A stretch of 64,000 nucleotides of DNA from an uncultured Pseudomonadota bacterium (GTDB lineage Bacteria; Pseudomonadota; Gammaproteobacteria; DASZBR01): positions 66,878 to 130,877 of the forward strand of contig CAVQJZ010000003.1 in assembly GCA_963712965.1 (NCBI GenBank). Reading direction: 5' to 3'. This document shows positions 59,703 to 61,567 of the stretch, piece after piece; the first letter of the stretch is position 1, and every line of letters starts with the position of its first letter. The translations under genes were made by a program, and so were the position numbers. The notes below the pieces were generated by a model that was not told the origin of the DNA, searched no databases, and saw nothing but the letters and a program-made list of their open reading frames with translations.

Positions 59703-60137
59703 TTAATTTTTGAGCAAAATTTTGCTTAATTGCTTACGGTTTTTGATTACATCTGCCAAAGTGTATTGCGCTAAAACTTTGATAAAACTATTTTTAGCTT
59801 CATCTAAAACATGCTTTAGTCGACATACGGGTGAAATCACACACTTCCCGTTTGCTTGATCAAAACATTCAACGATAAAAAAATTAGGCTCTATTTTTTG
59901 AACCAGGTCACCAAGGTTAATATGTTCTGGCTTTGCATTAAGCTGCAAGCCACCCTTTTTACCTCGAATCGTTTTAAGCACACCAAGCTTACTCAAGCGA
60001 TGGATAACTTTCATCAAGTGATTTTTAGAAATTTTGTAGCTGTCGGCAACTTCAGAGATGGTGCAGACCTCATCGTTACGCAGCGCAATATAAATCAGTG
60101 CGCGTAATGAATAATCTGTAAATTGTGTGAGCTGCAT
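59703..60137 (-). CDS. Rrf2 family transcriptional regulator (NsrR-like, three-Cys Fe-S cluster ligands)
   Basis: MQLTQFTDYSLRALIYIA is an Rrf2 N-terminus and wHTH. Cys91-x7-Cys99-x5-Cys105 is present. The start is set at 60137. Confidence 0.85.
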   Translation of the reverse strand: MQLTQFTDYSLRALIYIALRNDEVCTISEVADSYKISKNHLMKVIHRLSKLGVLKTIRGKKGGLQLNAKPEHINLGDLVQKIEPNFFIVECFDQANGKCVISPVCRLKHVLDEAKNSFIKVLAQYTLADVIKNRKQLSKILLKN

Positions 60138-60183
60138 AATGAAAACCTCATGGAAAGTATTGCATAGTGAAGCCACAATGTTT

Positions 60184-60206
60184 AACATTCATTTTAAATA
60201 CATGTT
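60184..60206. promoter_or_regulatory. NsrR-box-like 11-1-11 inverted repeat AACATTCATTT-T-AAATACATGTT
   Basis: The half-sites match each other at 9 of 11 positions and resemble my recollection of the gammaproteobacterial NsrR consensus (AAnATGnATTT-n-AAATnCATnTT). It lies between the divergent Rrf2 and globin genes. Confidence 0.5.
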
Positions 60207-60234
60207 ATGGCATTCTTACTATTAGGAGCAATTG

Positions 60235-60609
60235 ATGATGAGCAATTCTACGCTATTTGAACGATTAGGTGGACAAAATGCTGTTAACGCGGCCGTTGAT
60301 ATTTTTTATCGCAAAGTGTTAGCCGATGACCGCGTCAATTATTTTTTTGATGGTGTCGATATGGAAAAACAAATTCAAAAGCAAAAAGGATTTTTAACGA
60401 TGGTATTTGGTGGGCCAAATCATTATACCGGCAAAGATATGCGTGAAGGACATCGTCATTTGATTGCAAAGGGGCTGAATGACTCGCATGTTGATATTAT
60501 TATTGAGCATCTTGGCAGTACGTTAACCGAACTTGGCGCTAAGAATGAAGACATTGCAAAAGTGGCAGCCATTGCAAATAGTGTTCGAGATGATGTGTTA
60601 GATCGTTAG
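60235..60609 (+). CDS. glbN: Group I truncated haemoglobin (trHbN/GlbN-like)
   Basis: LFERLGG..AV..AVDIFYRKVLADDRVNYFF.GVDM.KQ..KQKGFL...FGGPNHYTGKDMREGHRHL. It is nearly collinear with my recollection of cyanobacterial GlbN and M. tuberculosis HbN. AGGAG lies 6 nt upstream of the ATG at 60235. Confidence 0.88.
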   Translation: MMSNSTLFERLGGQNAVNAAVDIFYRKVLADDRVNYFFDGVDMEKQIQKQKGFLTMVFGGPNHYTGKDMREGHRHLIAKGLNDSHVDIIIEHLGSTLTELGAKNEDIAKVAAIANSVRDDVLDR

Positions 60610-60613
60610 CCTC

Positions 60614-61567
60614 ATGTCCAATATTTGCTACGACAACCAATGTTACTCAGTGAATGATGCAGACACAGTATTGGATACGTTGTTAAAACATAACGTTGAT
60701 TATCCACATTCTTGTAAAACAGGCACGTGCCAGTCTTGTCTGACTAAGTTGATCGATGGTGAAATTGCCCCTGAAGCACAGCAAGGTTTAAAGCCTACAC
60801 TGCTAGCACAAAATTATTTTCTTGCCTGCCAGTGTAGGCCCAAAAAAAATATAACCATAGAACTTCCAAACCAAAATGATACTTCTATTTGTTCGAACAT
60901 CATCAAGTTATCGAAGCTTAATCATAATGTCTTGCAAGTGTGGTTATCTATTGATGATCCTAGCTTTTTTAAAGCGGGCCAATATATTAATCTCATCACG
61001 CCAGAAAATCTTATTCGTAGCTACTCTATAGCCAATGCGCCAAGTCAATATATTGAACTGCATGTGAAATTAATGCCAAATGGGCTAATGAGTAATTGGT
61101 TAAGTCAACATGCTCAAGTGGGTTCATCAATATATATTCGAGGCCCGATAGGCAATTGCTTTTATCATAATCCACAGAATGAATCGTTTCCTATAATCTT
61201 AGCGGGAACAGGCACAGGTTTGGCACCACTTATTGGCATTGCGCGTGATGCACTAGAAAATAAACATCATGGCAAAATTGTCTTGATACATGGTGGTGTT
61301 GATGACGCCGACTTATATCTTCATGAAGAATTAAATGTTCTACAAAAAGAACACTTTAATTTCAATTATGTGCCTTGTGTCTTGAAAGAAAGTCACTCCA
61401 TACAACAGGTATCCATTGACAACATACTCATTCAAAACCTTAAAGGCATAGCGCATGATGTGCGCCTTTTTGTTTGCGGACCTGAAGAAACCACAAAGAA
61501 AATGAAAGTAAAAGCCTTTTTAGCGGGCGTACCTTCTAGCGCTATATACAGTGATGCTTTTTTATAA
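60614..61567 (+). CDS. 2Fe-2S ferredoxin / FAD / NAD(P)H oxidoreductase (ferredoxin-NADP reductase-type)
   Basis: N-terminal plant-type ferredoxin Cys motif (CKTGTCQSC...C), RSYSIAN FAD-binding motif and AGTGTGLAPL NAD(P)H-binding motif. Confidence 0.85.
   Translation: MSNICYDNQCYSVNDADTVLDTLLKHNVDYPHSCKTGTCQSCLTKLIDGEIAPEAQQGLKPTLLAQNYFLACQCRPKKNITIELPNQNDTSICSNIIKLSKLNHNVLQVWLSIDDPSFFKAGQYINLITPENLIRSYSIANAPSQYIELHVKLMPNGLMSNWLSQHAQVGSSIYIRGPIGNCFYHNPQNESFPIILAGTGTGLAPLIGIARDALENKHHGKIVLIHGGVDDADLYLHEELNVLQKEHFNFNYVPCVLKESHSIQQVSIDNILIQNLKGIAHDVRLFVCGPEETTKKMKVKAFLAGVPSSAIYSDAFL

What the first reader, a model, noticed from the sequence alone, without database searches (positions are those of the whole stretch)
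59703..61567. Split 'flavohaemoglobin': NsrR-like regulator divergent from a truncated haemoglobin N plus dedicated 2Fe-2S flavin reductase operon
A group I truncated haemoglobin (125 aa) is followed after 4 nt by a ferredoxin(2Fe-2S)-FAD-NAD(P)H reductase. An Rrf2 regulator with an NsrR-like Cys91/Cys99/Cys105 triad is transcribed divergently. trHbN proteins are NO dioxygenases whose physiological reductase is generally unclear. Here a candidate partner is genetically hard-wired, giving a two-protein analogue of Hmp under a putative NO sensor. This is relevant to surviving host nitrosative stress.
Basis: partly seen in the sequence, partly recalled or inferred. Interest (0 to 1): 0.6.

Follow-up and report, generated by a model that had tools for sequence, protein, structure and literature searches.

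The report
NsrR-controlled truncated haemoglobin plus reductase operon
Three genes (a nitric-oxide-sensor-type repressor, a small haemoglobin and its own iron-sulfur flavoprotein reductase) form a probable two-protein nitric-oxide-detoxifying unit; it is real and widespread, but the same design was predicted for Legionella pneumophila in 2005, and I found no biochemical test of it.

Summary
An Rrf2 regulator (59703-60137, minus strand) has the NsrR ligand set Asp8/Cys91/Cys99/Cys105. It is divergent from a group I truncated haemoglobin (about 60235-60609). Four nucleotides later comes a Fer2-FAD-NAD reductase (60614-61567). A 23-bp NsrR-type palindrome (60184-60206) overlaps the inferred -10 of the globin promoter. 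It is the only such site in the 1.08-Mb assembly.

The locus is the orthologue of L. pneumophila nsrR<>glbN-lpg2536 (57/75/48% identity, same synteny, same operator). Rodionov et al. (2005) proposed that operon as an Hmp-like NO-oxidising pair, and Gardner (2012) restated it.

New comparative support:
- In 400 sampled genomes of the same class, 47 of 64 trHbN-bearing genomes have this reductase directly downstream.
- 49 of 57 reductase orthologues follow a globin.
- The reductases form one 100%-supported clade apart from paralogues.
- Natural Fer2-FAD-NAD-trHb fusions exist (at least 531 protein clusters).
- None of the 47 pair-bearing genomes has full-length Hmp.

Verdict: a good example of a known predicted system, of low-to-moderate interest.

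The parts
59703..60137 (-). nsrR-like Rrf2 repressor gene (144 aa; the mechanical ORF extends to 60188)
   Evidence: Pfam Rrf2 E 5.6e-37. The best NCBIfam model is NsrR (149.9 bits, below its 182 cut-off). The best solved structure is Streptomyces NsrR 5n07 (E 2.6e-17), with Asp8 and Cys91/99/105 aligned to its Asp8/Cys93/99/105. 57% identical to the L. pneumophila regulator.
60184..60206 (.). NsrR-type operator, an 11-1-11 palindrome AACATTCATTTTAAATACATGTT
   Evidence: The only match in the window to the Legionellales consensus AAGATGYATTTNAAATRCATCTT at 3 mismatches or fewer; 0 expected in 100 shuffles. Also unique in the whole 1.08-Mb assembly. The same position holds the consensus box in 39 of 69 related loci. 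The motif equals gATGyAT-N5-ATrCATc of PMC1274295.
60160..60188 (+). Inferred glbN promoter: -35 TTGCAT (60160-60165), 17-nt spacer, -10 TAACAT (60183-60188), overlapped by the operator
   Evidence: Positional homology with TTGACN-17-TAAGAT in Legionella loci. It is too weak to be listed by the consensus scan, so it is inferred, not shown.
60224..60228 (+). Shine-Dalgarno AGGAG of glbN
   Evidence: Read directly from the sequence.
60235..60609 (+). glbN, group I truncated haemoglobin (124 aa from ATG 60235; ORF opens at TTG 60232)
   Evidence: Pfam Bac_globin. PDB 3aq5 E 1.3e-32, with TyrB10, GlnE7, GlnE11 and HisF8 aligned. Gly-Gly hinges LGGQ and FGGP are visible in the sequence. 75% identical to L. 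pneumophila GlbN.
60614..61567 (+). Three-domain reductase: plant-type [2Fe-2S] ferredoxin, FAD-binding and NAD(P)H-binding domains (317 aa)
   Evidence: Pfam Fer2, FAD_binding_6 and NAD_binding_1. Cys34/39/42/72, RSYS, GTGTGxxPL and CGP are invariant in orthologues. PDB relatives: P450 reductase 5ogx, BenC 1krh, T4moF 4wqm. 48% identical to the reductase in the L. pneumophila locus, the counterpart of lpg2536. It lies inside the 100/100-supported clade of trHb-linked reductases.

Best explanation
This is an NsrR-repressed, two-protein NO dioxygenase, orthologous to the L. pneumophila nsrR<>glbN-lpg2536 locus.

Proposed mechanism (inferred throughout):
1. Without NO, the [4Fe-4S] form of the Rrf2 repressor sits on the 23-bp palindrome that overlaps the -10 of the glbN promoter. 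It blocks transcription and probably also limits its own divergent gene.
2. NO nitrosylates the cluster, the repressor leaves, and glbN and the reductase gene are transcribed as one mRNA. The second gene is translationally coupled across the 4-nt gap.
3. Oxy-ferrous GlbN converts NO to nitrate and becomes ferric.
4. The reductase re-reduces it along the path NAD(P)H -> FAD -> [2Fe-2S] -> haem. The ferredoxin domain is the docking, one-electron module.

Shown here: the genes and their cofactor and ligand motifs, the operator, the conserved pairing, the natural fusions, and the absence of Hmp where the pair is present.

Inferred: haem and Fe-S loading, the NO response, co-transcription, electron transfer, and NO dioxygenation as the physiological reaction.
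For: Domains and ligands.

Orthology and synteny with L. pneumophila: Rrf2 <> globin (123 aa) followed by the reductase (318 aa) with a 4-nt overlap.

Operator:
- unique in the window and in the assembly
- the same motif at the same place in 39 of 69 related loci
- identical to the published NsrR motif

Pairing, in 400 evenly drawn genomes of the class:
- 64 genomes have a trHbN
- 47 of them have this reductase directly downstream, with gaps of 2-195 nt
- 49 of 57 reductase orthologues follow a globin
- 68 of 80 named loci show the same arrangement. They come from Legionella, Fluoribacter, Francisellaceae, Coxiellaceae, Methylococcales, Phycisphaeraceae and Chthonomonadales

Reductase clade: linked, fused and a few unlinked members form one 100/100 clade, separate from the nearest paralogues.

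Rosetta stone: Fer2-FAD-NAD-Bac_globin single chains of 527-540 aa, in at least 531 clusters at 90% identity.

Regulator: close homologues lie next to 15 of 49 pairs and next to hmp in 11 of 24 Hmp-bearing genomes.

Hmp: absent from all 47 pair-bearing genomes and present in 24 of the other 352 (Fisher one-sided p = 0.045).

Published prediction: PMC1274295, PMC3820574.
Against: - I found no experiment on this pair in any organism.
- The regulator scores below the NCBIfam NsrR equivalog cut-off (149.9 against 182).
- The operator has 3 mismatches to the consensus.
- The inferred promoter hexamers are weak.
- Most Methylococcales and Planctomycetota pairs lack both a linked Rrf2 and the box, so NO control is not universal for the pair.
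- The Hmp exclusion is only marginally significant and is not corrected for phylogeny.
- The assembly is 57% complete, so 'sole NsrR target' and 'no Hmp' are weak statements for this organism.
Confidence: 0.72

Rival explanations
1. The globin-reductase pair is a true redox couple, but its physiological reaction is not NO dioxygenation. Alternatives include O2 scavenging or delivery, nitrite or hydroxylamine turnover, or peroxidase-type chemistry. NsrR control would be a lineage-specific overlay in Legionellales.
For: Most pairs in Methylococcales, Phycisphaeraceae and Chthonomonadales have no linked Rrf2 and no NsrR box. Gardner's review lists several other proposed activities for GlbN-type globins. 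Tandem and triple-domain trHb proteins in the same class hint at roles needing high globin capacity.
Against: Where regulation can be read, it is the NO/nitrite sensor NsrR. The regulator's homologues pair with hmp elsewhere. The pair and Hmp do not co-occur. TyrB10, GlnE7 and GlnE11 are conserved here; from general knowledge these are the residues implicated in trHbN NO dioxygenation.
Confidence: 0.15
2. The reductase mainly serves another acceptor, such as an oxygenase or a general ferric or flavin reductase role. It is co-expressed with the globin without direct electron transfer to it.
For: Its nearest characterised relatives are oxygenase and P450 reductases (5ogx, BenC, T4moF, MmoC). A Methyloprofundus / mussel-symbiont subclade keeps the reductase with no globin within 3 kb.
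Against: 49 of 57 orthologues sit directly behind a trHb. Natural fusions to a trHb domain are common. No oxygenase gene lies in the window locus. The clade is separate from its nearest paralogues in the sampled genomes, whose partners were not examined.
Confidence: 0.05
3. The Rrf2 protein senses something other than NO, for example iron or Fe-S status as RirA and IscR do, or general redox state. The operon would then respond to that signal.
For: It is below the NsrR equivalog cut-off, and RirA is the second-best model (126.7 bits). The three-Cys motif is shared by several Rrf2 subfamilies.
Against: The operator is the NsrR motif. NsrR is the best family match and the best solved structure, with Asp8 conserved. 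Homologues sit next to hmp in 11 genomes.
Confidence: 0.08

Closest known systems
Legionella pneumophila nsrR<>glbN-lpg2536 operon (Rodionov et al. 2005, PMC1274295; Gardner 2012, PMC3820574; trHbN lpp2601 in Gomez-Valero et al. 2014, PMC4256840)
   Same: The three genes are orthologous (57/75/48% identity) with the same order and orientation. The globin and reductase are tightly coupled (a 4-nt gap here, a 4-nt overlap there). An NsrR box lies on the glbN promoter. The functional proposal is the same.
   Different: The host is a different, uncultured Legionellales-type organism (nearest named homologue a 'Coxiellaceae bacterium' MAG). The operator carries a symmetric G3->C / C21->G change plus G6->T. 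The Legionella neighbours are absent here: aox-tehB-DUF488, which has its own NsrR box, and qNor.
Flavohaemoglobin Hmp (NO dioxygenase, NsrR-regulated in many bacteria)
   Same: A haem globin recharged by an FNR-family FAD/NAD(P)H module. It is under NsrR control and appears in complementary distribution with the pair.
   Different: Hmp is one chain with a 3-on-3 globin and no Fe-S domain. Here there are two proteins, a 2-on-2 globin and an extra [2Fe-2S] ferredoxin domain. The reductase scores 64.7 bits against the Hmp model's cut-off of 432.
Mycobacterium tuberculosis HbN (GlbN)
   Same: Group I trHb fold; the window globin matches 1idr at E 7.8e-18. It has an NO-detoxifying role in an intracellular bacterium.
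   Different: Gardner's review names no dedicated reductase for HbN. It says only that HbN's pre-A motif may help it interact with a specific ferredoxin reductase. That pre-A extension is absent here. Similarity is much lower than to the ciliate and cyanobacterial trHbNs.
Class IB-type three-domain oxygenase reductases (BenC 1krh, T4moF 4wqm, MmoC, P450 reductase 5ogx)
   Same: N-terminal plant-type [2Fe-2S] domain followed by FNR-like FAD and NAD domains, with the same ligand and nucleotide motifs.
   Different: It is below every equivalog cut-off. It forms a separate clade from its nearest paralogues in the sampled genomes. Its partner is a globin, not an oxygenase.
trHb-reductase chimeras: the raphidophyte trHb-nitrate reductase cited by Gardner 2012, and the bacterial Fer2-FAD-NAD-trHb fusions seen here
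   Same: A truncated haemoglobin linked to an FNR-superfamily reductase.
   Different: The window encodes the two parts as separate, translationally coupled genes. The bacterial fusions carry a divergent trHb at the C-terminus plus a CxxC...CxxC tail.

Membership tests
Group I truncated haemoglobin (trHbN / GlbN) | 2-on-2 globin domain of about 120 aa, closest to group I rather than groups II or III | tested here: met
   Pfam Bac_globin 70.4 bits. The top 20 PDB hits are all group I (3aq5 at 1.3e-32, cyanoglobins, THB1, HbN); group II hits reach only 1e-8 or weaker.
Group I truncated haemoglobin (trHbN / GlbN) | Haem-pocket residues TyrB10, GlnE7, GlnE11 and proximal HisF8, plus the Gly-Gly hinges | tested here: met
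   The alignment to Tetrahymena trHbN and its Y25F, Q46E and Q50E mutant entries shows Tyr26, Gln47, Gln51 and His74 conserved (numbering from the 125-aa ORF). LGGQ and FGGP are present.
Group I truncated haemoglobin (trHbN / GlbN) | Binds haem and carries out NO dioxygenation | not testable with these tools
   Needs protein biochemistry.
NsrR (NO-sensing Rrf2 repressor) | Rrf2 winged-helix fold with three C-terminal Cys plus Asp8 as [4Fe-4S] ligands | tested here: met
   Pfam Rrf2. The alignment to ScNsrR 5n07 puts Asp8 and Cys91/99/105 on Asp8 and Cys93/99/105.
NsrR (NO-sensing Rrf2 repressor) | Passes the curated NsrR equivalog model | tested here: not met
   NF008240 scores 149.9 bits against a cut-off of 182. 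It is still the best Rrf2 subfamily model.
NsrR (NO-sensing Rrf2 repressor) | NsrR-type palindromic operator (gATGyAT-N5-ATrCATc) at the promoter of an NO-detoxification gene | tested here: met
   60184-60206 is unique in the window and the genome and is conserved in relatives.
NsrR (NO-sensing Rrf2 repressor) | Homologues associated with hmp or other NO genes | tested here: met
   Homologues at E 1e-15 or better lie within 600 nt of hmp in 11 of 24 Hmp-bearing genomes.
NsrR (NO-sensing Rrf2 repressor) | DNA binding abolished by NO | not testable with these tools
   Needs gel-shift assays or in vivo induction.
L. pneumophila-type nsrR<>glbN-fdr locus | Orthologous three-gene synteny with a coupled globin-reductase pair and an NsrR box | tested here: met
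   the window reductase lies inside the 100/99 Legionellales subclade.
Three-domain Fer2-FNR reductase (BenC / MmoC / PRK05713 type) | Domain order Fer2 - FAD_binding_6 - NAD_binding_1, with four cluster Cys, RxYS and GTGxxP | tested here: met
Three-domain Fer2-FNR reductase (BenC / MmoC / PRK05713 type) | Equivalog-level match to a named oxygenase reductase | tested here: not met
   PRK05713 scores 163 against 338, MmoC 145 against 500, BenC 139 against 430. It forms a separate clade.
Flavohaemoglobin Hmp | Single chain with an N-terminal 3-on-3 globin fused to FAD/NAD domains | tested here: not met
   There are two genes and a 2-on-2 globin. NF009805 scores 64.7 bits against 432 and matches only the reductase part. 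No Hmp match was found in the assembly.

The most novel reading that the evidence does not exclude
The Fer2-FAD-NAD reductase clade is the dedicated physiological reductase of group I truncated haemoglobins in several phyla. With the globin it forms a modular NO dioxygenase that stands in for Hmp in roughly one in eight gammaproteobacterial species. The same module also exists as an uncharacterised single-chain form, reductase-trHb with a Cys-rich tail, in at least 531 protein clusters. I found no description of that form in the literature I searched. That would be a third architecture of haemoglobin-based NO dioxygenase.
Probability: 0.55. Interest if true: 0.5.

Novelty: already known. Interest (0 to 1): 0.25.

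Why it matters
Which protein re-reduces truncated haemoglobin N after each NO-dioxygenation cycle is still not settled biochemically. This gene pair names a specific candidate.

The pair can be tested directly with two small soluble proteins. It may explain how Legionella-like intracellular bacteria that lack Hmp cope with nitric oxide.

The idea has been in print since 2005, so this window adds only one more orthologue. The survey done here adds quantitative support. It shows how tight the pairing is, that fused forms exist, and that no pair-bearing genome has Hmp. It is not a new concept.

Tried and rejected
- Consensus promoter scan: it found no sigma-70 site in the 94-nt intergenic region. 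The promoter is inferred only from positional homology with Legionella loci.
- Other NsrR targets in the assembly: none at 3 mismatches or fewer. Matches at 4-5 mismatches were no more frequent than in shuffles.
- AOX, TehB, DUF488 and NorB, which flank the L. pneumophila locus: no homologue in this 57%-complete assembly.
- Literature searches for locus tags, for trHb plus ferredoxin reductase, Legionella, methanotrophs or chimeras, and for genomic context. None found an experimental reconstitution.
- Structure prediction: considered and not run. The tool returns no coordinates, so cofactor distances in the fused form could not be measured, and the fold assignments were already secure.
- Rejected idea: that the reductase is a stray oxygenase component. 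Adjacency, fusions and the tree argue against it.
- First reading of 8 'orthologues without globin': at least three of the 'no adjacent globin' reductase loci (from the genome survey or the named-locus set) do have a divergent, divergently oriented or contig-truncated globin next to them.
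Full report
**1. Observation**

The ORF list and the sequence show three genes at the stated coordinates.
- An ORF on the minus strand, 59703-60188.
- An ORF at 60232-60609 on the plus strand.
- An ORF at 60614-61567 on the plus strand. The gap between the last two is 4 nt (TAG-CCTC-ATG).

Pfam assigns them to Rrf2 (E 5.6e-37), Bac_globin (E 2.1e-19) and Fer2 + FAD_binding_6 + NAD_binding_1.

Two small corrections apply.
- The Rrf2 model and the alignment to Streptomyces NsrR both begin at the internal Met, ATG 60137. 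That ATG is preceded by GAGG.
- The AGGAG at 60224-60228 is only 3 nt from the TTG at 60232. It is 6 and 9 nt from the two following ATGs. The globin is therefore more likely 124 or 123 aa; the L. pneumophila protein is 123 aa.

**2. The three proteins**

Globin
- Its best solved relatives are all group I truncated haemoglobins: Tetrahymena trHbN 3aq5 at E 1.3e-32, Synechocystis and Synechococcus cyanoglobins at about 1e-31, Chlamydomonas THB1, and M. tuberculosis HbN at 8e-18.
- The PDB holds the Tetrahymena Y25F, Q46E and Q50E mutants. The alignments therefore show directly that TyrB10, GlnE7, GlnE11 and the proximal His are conserved.
- The two Gly-Gly hinges are present.
- There is no mycobacterial-type pre-A extension.

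Regulator
- It matches NsrR best among NCBIfam models, at 149.9 bits. This is below the equivalog cut-off of 182. RirA is second at 126.7 bits.
- It matches ScNsrR 5n07 best among solved structures. Asp8 and the three Cys align with the four cluster ligands.

Reductase
- It carries Cys34/39/42/72, RSYS, GTGTGxxPL and CGP. All are invariant among ten orthologues.
- Its characterised relatives are three-domain oxygenase and P450 reductases: 5ogx, BenC 1krh, T4moF 4wqm and MmoC.
- It is below every equivalog cut-off.

**3. Operator and promoter**

- The 94-nt intergenic region holds AACATTCATTTTAAATACATGTT at 60184-60206.
- I searched with the consensus taken from related loci (AAGATGYATTTNAAATRCATCTT), allowing up to 3 mismatches. 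This site is the only match in the 64-kb window, with none in 100 shuffles. It is also the only match in the whole 1.08-Mb assembly.
- In 32 Legionellales-type loci the same place holds the consensus box. There it begins one base into a TAAGAT -10 hexamer that lies 17 nt after TTGAC.
- The window has TTGCAT-17-TAACAT in the same register. Operator and -10 overlap, which is the classic geometry for repression. The hexamers are weak, and the generic scan did not list them.
- The motif is the one Rodionov et al. derived for NsrR, gATGyAT-N5-ATrCATc.
- The window site differs by a symmetric G3->C / C21->G pair and by G6->T.
- An earlier first-stage note (e1-2875135) flagged the same 23 bases. I tested it independently.

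**4. Identity of the locus**

- The assembly is a 57%-complete, seven-contig MAG.
- The reductase is 65-66% identical to proteins of uncultured 'Coxiellaceae' and Gammaproteobacteria MAGs, and 48% identical to the L. pneumophila protein.
- The L. pneumophila context is Rrf2(-) <> Bac_globin (123 aa), then the reductase (318 aa) with a 4-nt overlap. It is flanked by aox-tehB-DUF488 upstream and qNor downstream.
- Identities to the window proteins are 57% (regulator), 75% (globin) and 48% (reductase).
- Rodionov et al. [quoted passage not shown] - Gardner's 2012 review uses it as the genetic argument that ferredoxin-reductase-type proteins are the electron donors of trHbs.
- Gomez-Valero et al. 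2014 discuss the Legionella trHbN lpp2601.
- I found no paper that tests it experimentally.

**5.

I searched 400 evenly drawn species genomes of the same class with each of the three proteins and combined the coordinates.

| Measure | Result |
|---|---|
| Genomes with a group I trHb (E 1e-24 or better) | 64 |
| Of these, reductase directly downstream on the same strand | 47 (gaps 2-195 nt) |
| Reductase orthologues directly behind a globin | 49 of 57 |
| Pairs with an NsrR-like Rrf2 within 1.5 kb | 15 of 49 (10 divergent upstream, 5 downstream) |
| Pairs with the Rrf2 elsewhere in the genome | 26 of 49 |
| Pairs with no Rrf2 found | 8 of 49 |

- Reductase matches split cleanly into orthologues (E 1e-57 or better) and paralogues (6e-41 or weaker).
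- At least three of the 'no adjacent globin' reductase loci (from the genome survey or the named-locus set) turned out to have a divergent, divergently oriented or contig-truncated globin beside them.

Among 80 named loci, 68 have the globin directly upstream. The taxa are:
- at least 20 named Legionella species, plus Fluoribacter
- Francisellaceae and Coxiellaceae
- Methylobacter, Crenothrix and Methylovulum
- Phycisphaeraceae and Chthonomonadales

The NsrR box precedes glbN in 39 of 69 loci. These are essentially all loci with a linked regulator, including three Methylobacter loci. It is absent from most loci without one.

**6. Further support for a direct redox partnership**

a) A maximum-likelihood tree of 46 reductases puts all globin-linked, fused and a few unlinked members in one clade with 100/100 support. 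A long branch separates this clade from the nearest paralogues. The window protein lies in a 100/99 Legionellales subclade.

b) Three sampled genomes encode single chains of 527-540 aa with Fer2, FAD, NAD and Bac_globin domains.
- The globin part is a divergent group-I-like trHb that keeps TyrB10 and the proximal His.
- It ends in a CxxC...CxxC tail.
- A database search with that part found 531 clusters. Nearly all have the four-domain architecture; some are Fer2+globin proteins of about 300 aa.

c) Full-length Hmp occurs in 24 of the sampled genomes but in none of the 47 with the pair. The one-sided Fisher p is 0.045, uncorrected for phylogeny.

d) Homologues of the window's regulator sit next to hmp in 11 of those 24 genomes. 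This ties this Rrf2 group to NO detoxification independently of the globin.

**7. Mechanism**

The best-supported reading is a two-component NO dioxygenase under NsrR repression.
- Electron path: NAD(P)H -> FAD -> [2Fe-2S] -> ferric haem.
- The ferredoxin domain supplies the intermolecular one-electron step. In Hmp a direct FAD-to-haem contact within one chain does this job.
- The 4-nt gap, with no clear ribosome-binding site of its own, argues for translational coupling. Orthologues have gaps or overlaps of only a few nucleotides (about 2-7 nt in the Legionellales loci).

None of the following could be shown with these tools: haem or cluster loading, NO responsiveness, a single transcript, or electron transfer.

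**8. Rivals**

- A different chemistry for the couple cannot be excluded. Many non-Legionellales pairs lack NsrR control.
- A different acceptor for the reductase is unlikely, given the adjacency and the fusions.
- A non-NO signal for the regulator is unlikely, given the operator and the hmp association.

**9. Verdict**

- The system is an orthologue of a locus whose organisation and proposed function have been in the literature since 2005.
- It is a clean, testable candidate for the long-sought trHbN reductase, but this window adds no new principle.
- Other agents in this scan reached the same conclusion on other genomes. I read their notes only after reaching mine and treat them as agreement, not as evidence.

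Noticed in passing
L093:667-2250(-), L094:2231-3853(+), L095:665-2257(-); proteins P0121-P0240: Single-chain Fer2-FAD-NAD-truncated-haemoglobin proteins of 527-540 aa with a C-terminal CxxC...CxxC tail. The search found 531 clusters at 90% identity. Nearly all of the 120 listed have this architecture, mostly from uncultured Gammaproteobacteria. I found no description of them in the searched literature.
   Followed up: partly
P0143, P0165, P0198, P0206, P0230, P0231: Proteins of about 295-303 aa that combine only a 2Fe-2S ferredoxin domain with the trHb domain, with no FAD or NAD domains. Some lie on very short contigs and may be truncated gene calls.
   Followed up: no
L097:1349-2545(-) (G335:C38); also G089:C108, G345:C6, G269:C36, G072:C3: Tandem-domain truncated haemoglobins. 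One 398-aa protein has three group I trHb units. In four other genomes, two trHb units lie within one 272-297-aa open frame; I did not inspect those four frames.
   Followed up: partly
L009:1038-1060, and positions about 25-460 of L017-L049: Many Legionella loci carry a second NsrR box (AAGTTGYATTTNAAATACATCTT). In L. pneumophila it lies about 45 nt upstream of aox-tehB-DUF488, next to nsrR. The Legionella NsrR regulon is therefore probably larger than the 'sole target' stated in 2005. The window's assembly has no aox, tehB or norB homologue.
   Followed up: partly
L009:5003-7354: In this L. pneumophila assembly a quinol-type NO reductase gene (NorB_cytochrome_c-like + COX1, 783 aa) follows the reductase gene after 45 nt on the same strand. 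It may extend the NsrR-controlled unit.
   Followed up: no
G130:C36:9943-10296, G283:C37:18654-19025, G301:C4:126017-126380: Globin genes with in-frame stops, or split into two pieces, lie in front of intact reductase genes. This suggests the globin can decay while the reductase is kept.
   Followed up: no
L058, L062, L070, L075, L087, L090: A Methyloprofundus / Bathymodiolus-symbiont subclade of the reductase has no truncated haemoglobin within 3 kb on either side. Its partner there is unknown.
   Followed up: partly
window 61451-61475 and 61567-61579: A terminator-like hairpin (GCGCATGATGTGCGC followed by a T-run) lies inside the 3' end of the reductase gene, about 100 nt before its stop. 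The reductase stop and the convergent lptG stop are only 11 nt apart, with no obvious intergenic terminator.
   Followed up: no
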